Shown here in pieces: positions 21,001 through 30,000 of a stretch of DNA of 64,000 nt. Position numbers: made by a program. The stretch lies in assembly GCA_000002435.2 (NCBI GenBank), contig CM018793.1, one strand, 5' to 3'. Position 1 is the first letter of the stretch. Every line of letters starts with the position of its first letter. The DNA is from Giardia intestinalis (Eukaryota).

Positions 21001-24000
21001 AGAATAGCATTCAGTACAAACATCCGAATTGCTAGCCCCACACTTTGCACAGCCCTCAGAACATTCCGGACATTTTCCTCCGGCTGGGCTTTGTCCATTG
21101 GCTGCACATGTCTGACACTGTCCATTCTGAGCGCTACTGCATAATGTGTTACCTGGGTATGCTGTCGACTGATAGCACCCGCCAGACTGCAGGAAGTATG
21201 AACCTGTACAGGCCGTACATGTCCCGTCGTTTCCTGGCGTGCATCCCATGACTTCTCTTGTTGCTGTCGATACGCAAATACCATCTACTGGGGCGTATCC
21301 AGCCTTACACTTGCTGCAGTACTTCGAGCCCCCAACGACGGCCGTGCACTGCCCGTCTGCGCAGTTCTCTGCATACCTTCCCGTGCACTCTGGGATGCAT
21401 GTGCCGGTGGCTCCATCGTCGCCCTTGCTTAGCACATACCCAGGGTAGCAAGCCGTACACGACGTTTTTGCATTAGTACTACAGCTTGCGCATGACTCGT
21501 GGCAGGGGGTGCACACCTTGCTATTAGCATACATTCCAGCAGGGCAGGCATCTAAGCACGCATTCTTTTCTGGAGTGAGATACTTGTTTTGTTCACACGT
21601 CAAGCATGTGACCAAAGGGGTGGCTCTGGATCCTTGAGTGAGCAGACTGCACGTCGCACAATTAGCGATTCCACCATCTGGCGCACTATTACATGCAGCA
21701 CACTTGTTTCCCTGTTGTTCATCGACCTTTGGAAACGTAGCCGCTGTACATCCAGATGCTTCGACGCACGTGCCTGTGCTGCCACCGTCCACTTTCAGAT
21801 ATGTCTTAGTACCAGTTCCTTTACACTTACTACACTTGTTATTGCCTGTTACGGCACACGTAGCGCAATTCTCGTCTTGGCATGCTTCACAAGTGGGGCC
21901 AAAGAACCCGTCCTCACAGGTTGTGCACGTGGCAGGCACAGGATTAGTATCACTTGCTGCTGCTTTGGGTGCATCACACACTTTGCAGTGCAGCACGCCC
22001 TTGTACTTGTGGCTGTTTCCAACCAACACTTCTTCAACATCTCCACATGGTATGACCGATTGGTGTGCATTATCTCTATCTGCACCTGGTGGCACGAAGT
22101 ACCCAGCCTTAGCCTGCGTGCACACTCCAGCATTTGCTGTTTCACACATCGTGTTACCAGGCTCAGTAGCTTTTTTGTAGCATCCGCCTTTGTACATGAA
22201 GGATTCATGAGCACACTGTGTGCATACTCCGTTGTTCTTAGTACTGCACTCGTTGTTGTCTGCCGTGCACTTGCCGTCTGTCGGAGCAGATTGAGACCCA
22301 CTGTCATTGCACTGTGAACAGTACTTCTTGCCGTTGATGACGGCGCTACAGGTCTTGCAAGTGTTGGGGTCACTGCCAGTTACCTCTTCACATTCGTCTC
22401 CGGCTTGCGCTGCCCGTGCCATCTCGAGCATGAGGCCAATCAACAAAACTGCGTAGAACATTGTGGCTCGACGCTCTGTTACACAGGAATATAGCAACTT
22501 CGCTCGTCAGTCCGCCCCTTCGTGGCATCCGCCTGCGCTGCATGACGTATCGGCAGGGAAGGCCTCCACATGGGCCTGCACTGAGAGGTGGAGTTGTGCT
22601 GGTTCCGGTCTCATGGCCTGCCATCCCCGGGTCCCATGTAGCTAGCCGACCATGAAGATGGATCGATCAGTGCAGGCCCCTCCTCTGTGTTGCAAGGCGC
22701 ATCGCATGATAACTGCTACATGGCTGACCAATGCTTCGCTCTTCGCTGTGATGTGAGGGTCTCCTGGCGACCAGTTCTCCTGCTGTGCCAGTCACAAGGT
22801 CTGCCAAGGGACTCCTAGGTTCTCCTGGATGCCTGACCAGCGACCCGATGGAGCCGGCCGTGCGATGTCCAGCAGCCCGAGCCACGGGTCGTCACAAGCA
22901 GATGCCCCAGACACTGCTCGTCGAGGTCCTACGTTGAGGCCCGGCAGGAGCGATGCCCCGTGGAGGAGGGCTGCGTGTTCTATCGCGACTCACTACGACT
23001 GCCCCCTCTGCTTAGGGACACGCAACATGCCCGCCGCGAACGGATGGATGTCCGTCTGTCATACGACTTAACCTGGTTGCACCGCAGACCGTCGATAAGC
23101 CTGCCCCCTGTCGACTCCTATGCCACTGAAGGGCTCTGCCGGCCGATCGTCTTTAAAGACTGTCCCTCGCCGGTCGCAGGCCCATCTAGGAACCGGTGCC
23201 CGTCCGTCCTCATCTGGGATGGTCCCACTGGGGTGGACACGCCTTCGGGTACGCAGTGATGTGCCAGCACCCTTAGAACTGGTAGTCCCGCTCGCCTAAC
23301 CGGCTCCAGCCAACATACCACAGCGTCTCTCACACGAGGGCTACCCCGCGCACCGGAGAAGAGGTGATACCGGACAGCCAGCGCTATCTGGGCTGCCACA
23401 CTCCCTGCTAGCCAAGGGATAGTGGAGCCGTAGACGAACTGGGCCGTTGTCGTCCCTCTGGTTGGGGGTGCCCAGGTCCTGGAGCCATTGCCAAGAGTGA
23501 TCAGCTGGGTAATGTACACAGCGTGGCCACCGCTGCCAGGGGACACTCTTATGCTTGAAAGTCTACCAGCGAGACTTGGCCCGGTTGGCTGGTCAGAGAA
23601 CGGACTGTGTGCTGGTCAACTGGACTGAAGATTGATGATAGTGCTATATGGACAGCAAGCTAGGAAAGTCAGTGCCTTCTAGATTTCGTGTCACATTGAA
23701 CAACCCGCCGTACGAGATGCCTTAGACGATCAGCTGACTTTACAAAGTACTTTGGAGTACCAACAACTGTGTGGAGATGAGACAGTGAGAGAGCCTTAAA
23801 GCAGCTCGCGAGCAGAGAGGCTGGTGTGCACAGCAATGTGATCCATTAAGTCTCTGTTGGGTGCACAAGAAATGCTCGAATGTAGTAAACTGGTTGGCGC
23901 CTCTTATAGCAGGCAAGGGCTTCTATCCGCGCTGTGCAGTCGTGGGATGCACCTTGTAGACTTGAGGTGGACATCTACAAACACCGTGACTTGGAATGTA

Positions 24001-27000: not shown

Positions 27001-30000
27001 AGATGAGAGTAAATTAGGGGACCTTATTGAAAAAGAAACAGCGACCCGAGCTTCATCCACCACGAAGGAAGACCAAGGAGAGGCGCCACCGGTAGAGCAG
27101 AGGGTCTGCGAGAAGGCCTGAATCCTGGGCAGGCAGACGTGCACACACAGACTGAGCACACTTCCACAGAGCGACCGGGGAAGGTGCCAGGTTTTAGATA
27201 TACTAATAAAGAGGACTCCCTAGTATGTCGTCTACAACCAGCCATCGTCCTTGGACTGACCAGAACTTGAACGAGAATTTACTCGTGAGATTTTTGGATC
27301 GTGCCTGCAGGCGGCCCGGCAGCACAGCGCTGGAAGCAACCGGTGGGTGGAGTGAATCACTAATAATACTTTAGACATATCACCGTGCACCAGTCAGCCT
27401 AAAGCTTAATAAAGTCTTGACCTCCTGCATGCTTGCTACCTCTTTTTCTATACCCATAGGTGTGTATTTACGAATAGCGCCGCTCTGAACGTATGCAGTA
27501 GCCAGGTATCTCACCAAACTAACGATTGCGGGAATAGAGGGCTGGAACTGGATCTTCATCTGATAAAGTTGCAACATGGAAACACACAATCTTCGAACGC
27601 TGAACAGAATGGAGCAAGACAATCCACGTCAGTATATAGTATAGGGGCATTCTTAACGTTATAGTGGTTATGAGTATAACATCTTTAATAGAGAGAGCAG
27701 GACTATGAGAGATTACGGTTCAGACAACCGTGAAAGGTATACAGGAATCCATGTGCGGGCGCTCTAAGTGTCTTAAGAGGATTCAGTGGAAGCAGCAATT
27801 GGTACTATTGTTAAAAACAACGGCCAGTTGCATTCCCCGATTCTGGACCTCTACATAAGACTGGTAAAACCTATCCCCCTGTGCTCCACGTGATAACTTT
27901 AGAAAGTGGCACTGGGATTGAAGGACATGATTGAAGAGCCTTTTTAACCAGAAGCACCCCAGGATCCTCTCTAGTGTCCGACCCTTTGAAGTTTCACGAG
28001 CATTACGGGCACTCTGCGCCAAGGCCCACAAGACGATGTTGCTCCATGACAACCGGCGTGGGTTATTAAGAGATACTGGGAGAGCACAGCACAGATCACT
28101 GGGGTGACCATCGATTGACAGTGTGACAAAATCAGTAGTTACAGGTGTCACAGGATCACAAGCGTCAGCATCCAGTGGGGCTCATAGGTACCTTTTTCCT
28201 CATGTTCAGGCAGAATCGTTACGAAGAGCATTGGAGTCTCGCAGAGGCCGTATTGCTGTGATGAAATGCTAATTACGCGATATATGACAGTCGGCATACT
28301 TCCTGCCTAACCATGGACCGAGACATTATTTTCTGAGATAGAGGGTTATGGTACTTTAGACTAATTAGTTTAGACTCGTTAGTGAAGTTTTCAATAAAAA
28401 AGAATATCTTTATTGGGAGCGTTCGCTACCATCAGTGAAAGCTAAAAACATAGGATGGCTTATATTAGAATGCTGTTATTGACTTTCTACTTCATAGTGA
28501 ATAGTTTCGCAGCGCCTTGCCAACAGAAGGGGTATCACATGGTAACATGCAAACCGAATAGCTGTGAAAGAGTTGGTGTCATAGAGATTTGTGTTCAGTG
28601 TAGGGCAGGAGGGGTTCCTATCAATGGACAATGCTCTCTATTCGACACTTCTTATGTTGCTGAAGCGAGATGTACCAAAAGTGATGGTACCGCTTTGACA
28701 AGTTCCGATACTACCTGCGGAAAGTGCGGCGGTGAGTACTTTCTCTTCATGGGAGGGTGTTATGGCATAAAGTATAGACCTGGCAATGAGATATGCACTA
28801 GGGCTGATGATGGAAAGTGTACCACTTGTAATACAGGAAATAGTGGTAAATACGTATTTAAGAATGGAGACCCTAATGCTGCGCCGGGAACAGAATGCAT
28901 TCTGTGCCATGATACGATGGGAGCAAATGGATATACAGGAGTAGCAAACTGTGCAGAGTGTAGCCATGCAGGAACTAGTTCTGGTGCTGCTACCTGTGGA
29001 AAATGCCAGACAGAATACTTTAAGAGTGGAGATACATGTACACCATGTGGAGCTGATTGTTGGATTTGTGAATCTACAGCTAAGTGCACAGTGTGCAAAT
29101 ATGGAAAATATATAAAAGAAAATGGTAATGATAGAACTTGTGTAGACACTAGTGGATGTGGTACTGGTAACTATGCAGATATAAGAACAAACGAGTGCAA
29201 GCCGTGCACGGACACAAGTGTCAATGAATGTGCTACGTGTACATACAGTGACACCCTCAGGAAGCCCGTATGCACTGGGTGTAATAGTGGAGGAGCCAAG
29301 CCTCTCCTTAAGGTGGACCTCGATGGGTCAGCGACGTGCGTTGCGGAGGGAGAGTGTGCAAGTGGCAATACGCACTTCCTTGAACAATCTCCAAAGGCTT
29401 GTGTCCCGTGTGGTGATGCTAAGAATGGTGGGATTCTAGGTTGTAGCACTTGCTCCTCTAAAACTACATGTACAAAGTGCCTCGATGGATATTACAATAG
29501 TGGAAATGGTGGTACGGTTACATGCACAGCTTGCGGTGCCAACTGTGCTACATGCTCTGCTGCTGGCAATGATCAGTGCACTAAATGCAAGCCTGGATTC
29601 TTCATGAAACAACCCGGCTCTGCTGGTAAGTGCTTCGCCTGCGACAGTAAAGCCGACAATGGCATCGAGGGGTGCTCCCAATGTAACAGCGGCCTAACCC
29701 CTACATGCACCGATTGCAAGTCCAACTATCGCAAGGAGGGAACCAATCCGGTGAAGTGCACAAAGGCCTGCGAGGACCCCACGGCCTGCGGGGGGACGTC
29801 TGGGGCCTGCGGGGCGGTCGTCGTTGACAGCGCCGGGGCGTTCTCCCAGTACTGCTCGCTGTGCGGAGACCCCGCCACATTCCCCATCGATGGCGTTTGC
29901 ACAGGGGATAAGGGCGGGAATACCTGTGCCAATGGCGTCTGCACCCGGTGTGCTGCCGGGTTCTTCCTCTTCATGGGCGGCTGCTATGATGTGTCGAAGG

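What the first reader, a model, noticed from the sequence alone, without database searches (positions are those of the whole stretch)
22500..28450. A ~6-kb gene-free island in a genome that here packs genes 12-150 bp apart
Downstream of 31 kb the genes are separated by 12-150 bp and include overlapping stop codons. In contrast, 22500-28450 contains no ORF with a protein-like sequence or an AT-rich initiator. It is bounded by VSP genes on both sides and contains the repeat copy C and the skewed tract. Such islands beside VSP clusters could be decayed VSP or transposon graveyards, heterochromatic spacers involved in mutually exclusive VSP expression, or loci for non-coding RNAs.
Basis: partly seen in the sequence, partly recalled or inferred. 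Interest (0 to 1): 0.55.

Follow-up and report, generated by a model that had tools for sequence, protein, structure and literature searches.

The report
Repeat-littered non-coding spacer beside Giardia VSPs
The 6-kb gap is real but ordinary for Giardia: it is non-coding DNA between two surface-antigen-type genes, made of dead repeat copies plus neutrally drifting spacer, a kind of gene-poor VSP flank already described in the literature.

Summary
The window is Giardia intestinalis WB chromosome 5. The gap runs 22462-28454 (5,993 bp), between VSP GL50803_0041472 (minus strand) and the cysteine-rich membrane protein GL50803_0010659 (plus strand, tail YRGRK rather than CRGKA), arranged head to head. 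No real gene was found: no Pfam domain in any of six frames, no VSP or reverse-transcriptase remnant, no tRNA, no Rfam match. The one long ORF (25599-26711, 370 aa) is a by-product of a GC-rich dispersed repeat. Its copies differ by many frameshifting indels, substitutions fall evenly on the three codon positions, and stop triplets are depleted in all three frames.

The island has four parts:
- About 2.9 kb of unique sequence (22462-25335).
- An internally deleted copy (25336-27009) of a roughly 3.2-kb repeat with inverted-repeat ends ("G").
- A third copy of a VSP-3'-flank repeat ("R", 27031-27360), recently gene-converted.
- A 1.1-kb spacer (27361-28454) homologous to the 751-bp head-to-head spacer of assemblage E.

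The spacer diverges at the intergenic rate. Gene-poor, GC-rich VSP flanks are published (Xu 2020; Rodríguez-Walker 2022), so interest is low. Two things stay open: whether G is part of the "dead" GilD retrotransposon or an undescribed element, and whether the island has a chromatin or RNA role.

The parts
22462..28454 (.). The gene-free island as a whole (5,993 bp, 54.8% GC, against 48.4% for 31-64 kb)
   Evidence: Limits; composition. No Pfam, VSP, tRNA or Rfam signal.
20698..22461 (-). Left boundary gene: VSP GL50803_0041472 (XP_001708033.1 / KAE8305263.1), 587 aa, CRGKA tail. Its 5' end faces the island.
22462..23560 (.). Block A: 1.1 kb, 61% GC, unique non-coding sequence directly upstream of the VSP
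   Evidence: Composition. No self-similarity within the window and no match to the other loci. Its three longest ORF translations found no homologue among 5.8 billion proteins.
23561..25335 (.). Block B: 1.8 kb of unique sequence, about 49% GC rising to 60% at its right end, with no ORF over 148 codons
   Evidence: Its ORF translations found no homologue. No Pfam hit.
25336..27009 (.). G element: an internally deleted copy (1.67 kb, 61.6% GC) of a dispersed Giardia repeat. The longest copy seen is 3.2 kb with inverted-repeat ends (L008 5136-8364).
   Evidence: 74-84% nucleotide identity to copies in DH contigs (L006, L007) and in ENA Giardia contigs (L008, L009). phmmer found 43 fragmentary 'protein' representatives, several of them DH 'hypothetical proteins' or old unnamed MetaClust/UniParc ORF entries.
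25336..25476 (+). Left inverted-repeat arm of G
   Evidence: Matches the right arm (25345-25449 against 26905-27009, 73% complementary). Also matches L009 4874-5011 and L008 8364-8218.
26905..27009 (-). Right inverted-repeat arm of G
25599..26711 (-). Spurious 370-aa ORF inside G (P0001, UPI000018C514); absent from the current annotation
   Evidence: Copies differ by 4-16 indels per pair that are not multiples of 3. Substitutions by codon position were 36/54/48, 53/66/56, 37/37/30 and 35/41/35. A majority consensus restores no longer ORF. Stop triplets are depleted in all three frames of that strand: 10/7/11 against 15.4 expected. No Pfam hit.
27031..27360 (+). R3: third copy of the R repeat ('repeat copy C'), a sequence that elsewhere lies just downstream of VSP stop codons. 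No VSP is attached here.
   Evidence: R2 (18474-18899) ends 42 nt from the stop of the pseudo-VSP at 18941, and an R-like sequence follows a VSP stop in L009. WB R3 is 97% identical to WB R2 but only 76% to the DH orthologous position.
27361..28454 (.). Block E: 1.09 kb, 44% GC, the conserved head-to-head spacer and upstream region of GL50803_0010659
   Evidence: Homologous to the P15 spacer (L011 15878-16424 aligns with window 27922-27362). WB-DH identity is 96.3%, like another intergenic stretch at 95.8% and below housekeeping CDS at 98.3-98.9%.
28455..30629 (+). [quoted passage not shown]
16350..16810 (-). R1: inverted copy of the R repeat, abutting the start of the giant gene (outside the finding, same family)
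18474..18899 (+). R2: copy of the R repeat directly downstream of the pseudo-VSP at 18941-20659 (outside the finding, same family)

Best explanation
The island is non-coding DNA with no detectable gene. It is a patchwork that built up next to fast-turning-over surface-antigen genes through duplication, ectopic recombination, gene conversion and deletion.

From right to left it consists of four parts:
- E: a spacer and promoter region that predates the split of assemblages A and E.
- R3: a copy of a repeat that normally trails VSP genes, here with no VSP attached. It sits exactly where assemblage E has a VSP.
- G: a dead, internally deleted copy of a GC-rich dispersed repeat with inverted-repeat ends.
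- About 2.9 kb of unique sequence of unknown origin upstream of the VSP.

Shown: the composition of the island, the repeat families, the absence of coding or known-RNA signal, near-neutral divergence of E, and a recent gene-conversion tract in R3.

Inferred: the pieces are inert by-products of VSP-cluster rearrangement rather than functional elements. They persist because selection against extra DNA is weak in these regions and because gene conversion keeps the repeats (and perhaps their high GC) alive.
For: 1. No gene:
- Six-frame Pfam, VSP tblastn, tRNA, Rfam and codon-model scans are all negative.
- The flanking genes have consecutive protein accessions in the current WB annotation.

2. G is a dispersed DNA repeat, not a protein:
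- There are 12 and then 43 fragmentary hits whose similarity jumps between frames.
- Copies share 74-84% nucleotide identity in unrelated contexts.
- Frameshifting indels are frequent and substitutions fall evenly on the three codon positions.
- Stop depletion is equal in all three frames.
- No Pfam remnant appears in the 3.2-kb copy or in its 5-kb left flank.

3. The window's G copy lacks about 1.5 kb that is present in L008.

4. R is associated with VSP 3' ends in WB and in L009. R and G are joined in other loci too.

5. P15 has the same head-to-head arrangement with only 751 bp between the genes. That spacer is homologous to E, and the homology stops at about 27362, where R3 begins.

6. WB-DH identity by segment: E 96.3%, another intergenic stretch 95.8%, housekeeping CDS 98.3-98.9%, and R3 only 76%. 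Yet WB R3 is 97% identical to WB R2, which indicates a recent conversion tract.

7. Every short-read assembly examined breaks at R or G.

8. Published generalisations match:
- Regions around VSPs are gene-poor (PMC7000408).
- VSP intergenic regions have a median of 1,280 nt and a mean of 2,131 nt, against 79 and 392 nt genome-wide (bioRxiv 10.1101/2022.03.07.483299).
Against: - No expression, small-RNA or chromatin data could be consulted, so inertness is inferred from sequence only.
- Blocks A and B (2.9 kb, half the island) have no identified origin.
- The 392-codon stop-free stretch exceeds all 300 dinucleotide shuffles. A purely compositional cause is supported but not proven.
- The whole WB genome could not be searched, so copy numbers and positions of G and R in WB are unknown.
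- R1 and R3 share the same VSP-less end. R3 may therefore have arrived as an already orphaned copy, rather than marking an in-situ VSP deletion.
- P15 VSPs are not clear orthologues of the WB genes, so which lineage gained or lost DNA is uncertain.
Confidence: 0.7

Rival explanations
1. G (and perhaps more of the island) is a relic of GilD, the 'dead' non-LTR retrotransposon family of Giardia. Its copies are riddled with internal deletions and frameshifts. The island would then be a retrotransposon graveyard in the strict sense.
For: [quoted passage not shown]
- Xu 2020 finds reverse-transcriptase remnants between 4 of 7 head-to-head VSP pairs.
- G copies show internal deletion, many indels, 74-84% identity and VSP proximity.
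Against: - No reverse-transcriptase or endonuclease Pfam match at E<=1 in six frames of the island, of the 3.2-kb L008 copy, or of 5 kb flanking it.
- None of the 55 G-related ORF products looked at carries a Pfam domain or a name other than 'hypothetical'.
- G has 105-140-nt inverted-repeat ends, which non-LTR elements lack.
- At 62% GC it is unlike coding sequence here.
- No GilD reference sequence was available, so direct comparison was impossible.
Confidence: 0.2
2. G is a decayed non-autonomous DNA transposon or foldback-type element, with defined inverted-repeat termini and no surviving transposase. That would be a class not recorded in Giardia.
For: - Inverted-repeat arms are present in two independent copies: window 25336-25476 with 26905-27009, and L008 5136-5226 with 8218-8364.
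- The arm starts at about the same nucleotides (TCACCTGCTACCTGAGTG) next to unrelated flanks in the window, L009, L007 and L008.
- The copies are dispersed.
Against: - No target-site duplication is visible.
- No transposase remnant was found.
- The arms are only 68-75% alike.
- Some copies share the flanking R junction, so they spread by segmental duplication rather than transposition.
- Palindromic duplication is common around Giardia VSPs and could create inverted ends without any transposase.
Confidence: 0.12
3. The island is functional non-coding DNA. It could be a heterochromatin or insulator spacer, or a source of long or small RNAs that take part in mutually exclusive VSP expression.
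For: - Its position lies between two divergently oriented cysteine-rich surface-protein genes.
- Inverted repeats (the G arms, and R1/R2 nearby) could give double-stranded RNA.
- Giardia makes small RNAs from retroposons (cited in PMC2875222).
- The preprint notes larger, GC-richer 'promoter' regions for VSPs.
Against: - P15 has the same gene arrangement with 751 bp.
- E diverges at the intergenic rate.
- R3 was overwritten by conversion in WB relative to DH.
- The G copy here is an internally deleted variant.
- The G arms are only 73% complementary across a 1,455-nt loop.
- No Rfam match.
- No data type that could show function was available.
Confidence: 0.1
4. The 370-aa ORF (25599-26711, minus strand) is a real lineage-specific protein-coding gene.
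For: - It has an ATG start and 392 stop-free codons, longer than in 300 dinucleotide shuffles.
- A sequence identical to it is on record in MetaClust/UniParc.
- Relatives are annotated as hypothetical proteins in DH.
Against: - Paralogous copies are frameshifted relative to each other, with 4-16 indels per pair that are not multiples of 3.
- There is no excess of third-position substitutions.
- A consensus restores no ORF.
- Stops are depleted equally in all three frames.
- No Pfam domain.
- It scores negative on both codon models.
- It is absent from the current annotation.
- All 43 relatives are short fragments.
Confidence: 0.02

Closest known systems
Gene-poor, GC-elevated flanks of VSP genes in G. 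intestinalis WB (Xu et al. 2020, PMC7000408; Rodríguez-Walker et al. preprint 10.1101/2022.03.07.483299)
   Same: - It lies next to a VSP and a cysteine-rich membrane protein in head-to-head orientation.
- Its intergenic length is far above the genome median of 79 nt.
- GC is raised upstream of the VSP.
- It contains a formerly called 'hypothetical' ORF with no sign of being a gene.
- Part of it is homologous to other gene-free regions.
   Different: - At 5,993 bp it is nearly three times the mean VSP intergenic length (2,131 nt).
- The flanking genes are not a duplicated pair.
- No reverse-transcriptase remnant is detectable, unlike 4 of the 7 head-to-head duplicated pairs listed by Xu et al.
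GilD, the dead non-LTR retrotransposon family of Giardia (Arkhipova & Morrison 2001, as described in PMC2861651)
   Same: - Its copies are dead, multi-copy and internally deleted.
- It lies in gene-poor DNA next to VSP genes.
   Different: - No RT or endonuclease similarity was found in G or around it.
- G has inverted-repeat ends and 62% GC.
- Identity with GilD could not be tested because no reference sequence was available.
Non-autonomous DNA transposons (MITEs) and foldback elements of other eukaryotes
   Same: - It has inverted-repeat termini and no coding capacity.
- Its copies are dispersed, with similar ends next to different flanks.
   Different: - It is much longer (1.7-3.2 kb).
- Its arms are weakly matched.
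- It has no target-site duplication.
- No autonomous partner is known.
- Some copies were clearly moved as part of larger duplicated blocks.
Repeat- and pseudogene-rich flanks of antigen-gene arrays in other parasites, such as Trypanosoma brucei VSG arrays and Plasmodium var-associated subtelomeric repeats (from general knowledge, not tested here)
   Same: Antigen genes embedded in recombination-prone, gene-poor, repeat-bearing DNA, with signs of gene conversion.
   Different: - This locus is chromosome-internal.
- It has no tandem repeat arrays.
- No demonstrated role in switching is known; Giardia VSP control is thought to be largely post-transcriptional or epigenetic.

Membership tests
Gene-poor VSP-flanking region (Xu 2020; Rodríguez-Walker 2022) | Lies directly next to a VSP or cysteine-rich protein gene | tested here: met
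   VSP GL50803_0041472 on the left and HCMP/CRMP GL50803_0010659 on the right.
Gene-poor VSP-flanking region (Xu 2020; Rodríguez-Walker 2022) | Intergenic distance far above the genome norm (median 79 nt, mean 392 nt), with no supported gene | tested here: met
   The gap is 5,993 bp. All gene and RNA searches were negative. Published norms.
Gene-poor VSP-flanking region (Xu 2020; Rodríguez-Walker 2022) | Raised GC upstream of the VSP | tested here: met
   61% GC in the 1.1 kb upstream of the VSP and 54.8% for the whole island, against 48.4% for 31-64 kb. The 1.1 kb upstream of the HCMP is only 44%.
Gene-poor VSP-flanking region (Xu 2020; Rodríguez-Walker 2022) | No transcription or translation of the embedded 'hypothetical' ORFs; higher allelic variation | not testable with these tools
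   No expression, proteomic or read-mapping data for the island were available.
GilD dead non-LTR retrotransposon | Recognisable reverse-transcriptase (and endonuclease) remnant | tested here: not met
   No RVT or any other Pfam family at E<=1 in six frames of the island, of L008 5100-8400 or of L008 1-4990.
GilD dead non-LTR retrotransposon | Multiple dead copies with internal deletions, substitutions and frameshifts, in gene-poor DNA next to VSPs | tested here: met
   These features hold for G. The family description comes from PMC2861651.
GilD dead non-LTR retrotransposon | Sequence similarity to the published GilD copies or consensus | not testable with these tools
   The paper (PMC64710) and the sequences are not held. 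No Giardia genome or Repbase search was available.
VSP pseudogene | Similarity to VSP coding sequence (CXXC-rich ectodomain, transmembrane segment, CRGKA tail) | tested here: not met
   tblastn with three local VSP-type proteins gave only E=3 and E=6.8 noise. The Pfam VSP model is silent in all six frames. The VSP codon model is negative throughout.
DNA transposon / MITE / foldback element | Terminal inverted repeats | tested here: met
   Arms 25345-25449 and 26905-27009 are 73% complementary. L008 has arms at 5136-5226 and 8218-8364.
DNA transposon / MITE / foldback element | Target-site duplication flanking the termini | tested here: inconclusive
   No duplication is seen at the window or L008 copies. 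However, the termini are defined only to within a few nucleotides and the arms are about 25-30% diverged.
DNA transposon / MITE / foldback element | Transposase, in this copy or in an autonomous relative | tested here: not met
   No Pfam hit in either copy. All 43 relatives in 1.84 billion representatives are ORF fragments of 315 aa or less, and the 10 scanned against Pfam carry no supported domain.
Known non-coding RNA gene (tRNA, snoRNA, other Rfam families) | Match to a tRNA model or an Rfam covariance model | tested here: not met
   ARAGORN found 0 genes. Rfam found 0 at gathering score on the whole window and 0 at E<=1 on 22400-28500.

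The most novel reading that the evidence does not exclude
G is not GilD. It is an undescribed, now-dead mobile or palindromic element of about 3.2 kb with inverted-repeat ends. It spread through Giardia genomes together with VSP-flank repeats. That would be the first DNA-transposon-like or foldback-like family in a genome reported to hold only three non-LTR retrotransposon families. Its inverted arms could also feed the RNAi machinery implicated in VSP control.
Probability: 0.12. Interest if true: 0.55.

Novelty: already known. Interest (0 to 1): 0.2.

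Why it matters
The finding changes little as it stands. It confirms, for one locus on WB chromosome 5, the published rule that Giardia's otherwise compact genome loosens around VSP genes.

The dissection adds three points:
- It explains why a 370-aa 'hypothetical protein' ORF on record for this stretch was an artefact.
- It shows that the loose DNA is partly made of identifiable repeat families, which break every short-read assembly examined at exactly this point.
- It shows ongoing gene conversion between repeat copies 8 kb apart.

If the G family proves distinct from GilD, Giardia's very short list of repeat and mobile-element families would gain a member. If these repeats mediate the rearrangements that create and destroy VSP genes, they bear on how the antigen repertoire evolves.

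Tried and rejected
- **Exact-protein look-ups in WB.** Look-ups of the VSP, the HCMP, the 370-aa ORF and the VSP paralogue P0014 found nothing on record, so the WB chromosome could not be fetched.
- **Spanning the island in other isolates.** Contigs reached through E1 and the HCMP orthologues all stop at the repeats or at the HCMP 3' end, so no second assembly spans the island.
- **Large chimeric protein query.** A 3,936-aa six-frame query of the non-G parts timed out.
- **Smaller chimeric queries.** One covering blocks A, R and E, and one covering block B, ran but returned no hit at E<=0.001. This is weak negative evidence, because the search pre-filters on exact 5-residue words.
- **JGI metagenome scan.** A conserved G motif gave one contig, which proved to be a chance match.
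- **Consensus reconstruction of G.** It restored no long ORF; the maximum was 227 aa.
- **GilD sources.** The GilD paper and its commentary are not held.
- **In-situ VSP deletion at 27360.** I first read R3 as the orphaned 3' flank of a VSP deleted on the spot. The five-way alignment shows R1 and R3 share the same VSP-less end, so R3 may have arrived already orphaned. I keep only the weaker statement that assemblage A has an R copy where P15 has a VSP.
- **Tandem repeats.** None in the island.
- **Bacterial promoter/terminator scans.** Not used, as they do not apply to Giardia.

Full report
**Identity of the window.** The ORFs on either side of the gap match the Pfam VSP family. Exact-sequence look-ups place them in Giardia intestinalis WB C6, on a 4.02-Mb chromosome, which a supplementary table names as chromosome 5, NC_051860.1. 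The left gene (20698-22461, minus strand) is VSP GL50803_0041472 (KAE8305263.1). [quoted passage not shown] Its tail reads YRGRK, not the canonical CRGKA. The two genes are head to head and 5,993 bp apart.

- Genes from 31 kb onward sit about 11-170 bp apart, and one convergent pair overlaps by 4 bp.
- Nothing in 22462-28454 looks like a gene:
  - Six-frame translations hit no Pfam family at E<=1.
  - The three local VSP-type proteins find no remnant by tblastn.
  - There is no tRNA.
  - There is no Rfam match at gathering score or at E<=1.
  - Codon models trained on the window's housekeeping genes and on its VSPs are negative across the gap but clearly positive over the VSPs.
- The consecutive protein accessions of the flanking genes show that the current annotation places no protein-coding gene there either.
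- The apparent emptiness of the first 16 kb of the window is an artefact of the ORF lister. It is one giant minus-strand frame that runs off the window.

**The one long ORF is not a gene.**
- The gap contains an ATG ORF of 370 aa (25599-26711, minus strand). It lies within 392 stop-free codons, longer than in any of 300 dinucleotide shuffles.
- It is on record only as an unnamed MetaClust/UniParc entry, UPI000018C514.
- A protein search returned 11 partial relatives at 32-73% identity, including DH 'hypothetical proteins'. Their sequences follow the query in one frame and then continue in another.
- An exhaustive phmmer search found 43 representatives, all fragments of 57-315 aa. The ten scanned against Pfam have no supported domain.
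- At the DNA level the copies are 74-84% identical.
- Within the ORF span they differ by 4-16 indels per pair that are not multiples of three. Substitutions fall evenly on the three codon positions: 36/54/48, 53/66/56, 37/37/30 and 35/41/35.
- A majority consensus restores no longer frame.
- Stop triplets are depleted about equally in all three frames of that strand, in three copies: 10/7/11 against 15.4 expected, 11/9/9 against 15.7, and 5/5/4 against 11.6.
- The long ORF is therefore a compositional by-product of a GC-rich, strand-skewed repeat.

**Anatomy of the island, right to left.**

*Block E (27361-28454, 44% GC).*
- It is the upstream region of GL50803_0010659.
- It is homologous to the spacer between the equivalent head-to-head cysteine-rich genes of assemblage E isolate P15. 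There the annotated gap is only 751 bp.
- Between WB (A1) and DH (A2) it is 96.3% identical. Another intergenic stretch is 95.8%, and housekeeping coding sequence is 98.3-98.9%. It therefore evolves at the intergenic rate.

*R3 (27031-27360).*
It matches R2 (18474-18899) and, inverted, R1 (16350-16810).
- R2 ends 42 nt from the stop codon of the 5'-truncated pseudo-VSP at 18941-20659. An R-like sequence also follows a VSP stop in an unrelated Giardia contig, L009. R is thus a VSP-3'-flank repeat.
- Homology between WB and P15 ends at about 27362, exactly where R3 begins. In P15 a VSP follows about 60 nt later.
- WB R3 is 97% identical to WB R2 over about 270 bp but only 76% identical to the DH sequence at the orthologous position. 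Identity returns to about 96% immediately to the right. This marks a recent gene-conversion tract in WB.
- R1 and R3 share the same VSP-less outer end. R3 may therefore have arrived already orphaned rather than marking an in-situ VSP deletion.

*G (25336-27009, 62% GC).*
- It is bounded by inverted arms of 105-140 nt that are about 73% complementary.
- The same arm begins at about the same nucleotides next to unrelated flanks in L009, L007 and L008.
- L008, a 9.4-kb contig in which only tiny ORFs were called, carries a 3.2-kb copy with both arms (5136-5226 and 8218-8364). The window copy lacks its central-right 1.5 kb.
- Neither copy, nor 5 kb flanking the L008 copy, has any Pfam remnant.
- Other copies sit at DH contig ends, and one lies 2.8 kb upstream of a VSP.
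- Two ORF products from other loci span R/G junctions, so R and G also travel together.

*Blocks A and B (22462-25335).*
- These 2.9 kb are 61% GC next to the VSP and then about 49%.
- They are unique within the window and against all fetched loci.
- Their ORF translations found no homologue.
- Their origin is unknown.

**Independent sign that these are repeats.** Every assembly from short reads stops here. The DH contig starts at about window position 26981, an ENA contig starts at about 27220, and the Logan contigs end in the conserved 3' end of the HCMP.

**What it most likely is.** The island is inert, recombination-prone DNA that accumulated beside fast-evolving antigen genes. It combines an old spacer with debris from two repeat families and some sequence of unknown source.
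- Shown: the composition of the island, the lack of coding and known-RNA signal, the neutral-like divergence of E, the internal deletion of the G copy, and the conversion tract in R3.
- Inferred: the absence of function, and the idea that ectopic recombination and gene conversion among these repeats both build such islands and keep them GC-rich.
- I put this at 0.7.

**Comparison with what is known.**
- Xu et al. [quoted passage not shown] They list head-to-head VSP pairs 2.5-12.4 kb apart, four of them with a reverse-transcriptase remnant between.
- The Rodríguez-Walker preprint gives a VSP intergenic median of 1,280 nt and a mean of 2,131 nt, against 79 and 392 nt genome-wide. [quoted passage not shown]
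- The kind of feature is therefore already known, and this is a long example of it.
  - For it: dead, deleted, VSP-adjacent copies.
  - Against it: no RT or endonuclease trace in or near any copy examined, inverted-repeat ends, and 62% GC.
  - No GilD reference sequence could be obtained, so the direct test was impossible. I give it 0.2.
- A decayed DNA-transposon or foldback-type element is the most novel reading left open, at about 0.12. Inverted arms and similar termini speak for it. The absence of target-site duplications and of any transposase, and the copies that share flanks, speak against it.
- A regulatory, chromatin or RNA role cannot be tested with sequence alone. The short P15 spacer, the neutral divergence and the overwritten R3 argue against a sequence-specific function, so I give it 0.1.

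**Verdict.** The 'graveyard' interpretation is right in spirit, although the island holds no VSP or reverse-transcriptase remnants. The phenomenon is already in the literature, so interest is low (0.2). The modest open question is what the G family is.

Noticed in passing
window 1-16354 (minus strand): One uninterrupted reading frame of more than 5,451 codons runs off the start of the window. The likely start is MKLSLIT... at about 16339. The ORF listing omits it, so the first 16 kb wrongly looks gene-free.
   Followed up: partly
window 16350-18899: This is a palindromic unit. R1 (inverted, 16350-16810) and R2 (18474-18899) are about 84% alike and flank a 1.66-kb spacer of 62% GC with strong T>A skew. 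The span from the outer end of R1 to the pseudo-VSP stop is about 2.6 kb, the same size as the 2.5-2.8-kb spacers of tail-to-tail VSP pairs in Xu 2020. Here only one side carries a (pseudo)VSP; the other side abuts the giant gene's start.
   Followed up: partly
window 18941-20659 (minus strand): A VSP-family frame ends in CRGKA but has no start codon or signal peptide. It begins 38 bp after the stop of the upstream VSP. This is a 5'-truncated pseudo-VSP in tandem, as described for pseudo-VSP arrays.
   Followed up: partly
window 27031-27299 and 18605-18873; L010 1-330: WB copies R3 and R2 are 97% identical, while the DH sequence at the R3 position is only 76% identical to WB. The adjoining spacer is 96% identical. 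This indicates a recent gene-conversion tract between repeats 8.4 kb apart.
   Followed up: yes
window 28455-30629 (plus strand): The 'VSP' on the right ends in YRGRK rather than CRGKA and is annotated as HCMP/CRMP GL50803_0010659. It is the fastest-diverging gene of the neighbourhood between WB and DH, at 91.6% against 98-99% for its neighbours.
   Followed up: partly
L011 13555-18205 (P15 contig ACVC01000192): In assemblage E the E1 gene is followed by two head-to-head VSP-family genes only 751 bp apart. Apart from the conserved 3' tail they share no close DNA similarity with the WB genes at the same positions, which illustrates VSP turnover at a fixed site.
   Followed up: partly
L008 1-9361 (ENA ERZ28528424): This 9.4-kb Giardia contig has only tiny called ORFs. 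It contains the longest G copy seen (3.2 kb) and no Pfam remnant in the 8.3 kb tested. It is another, larger gene-free island of the same kind.
   Followed up: partly
window 18443-18475: A short tandem repeat, CCCCACCAG x3.8, sits at the inner edge of R2.
   Followed up: no
window 34464-35900 (plus strand): The PPPDE peptidase gene is 478 aa in the old annotation and in Logan gene calls, but 455 aa in the current WB annotation (a different start codon).
   Followed up: no
window 60457-61210: A 754-bp gap between long ORFs in the otherwise compact part holds a 179-codon stop-free stretch (60634-61173, plus strand). It was not examined.
   Followed up: no
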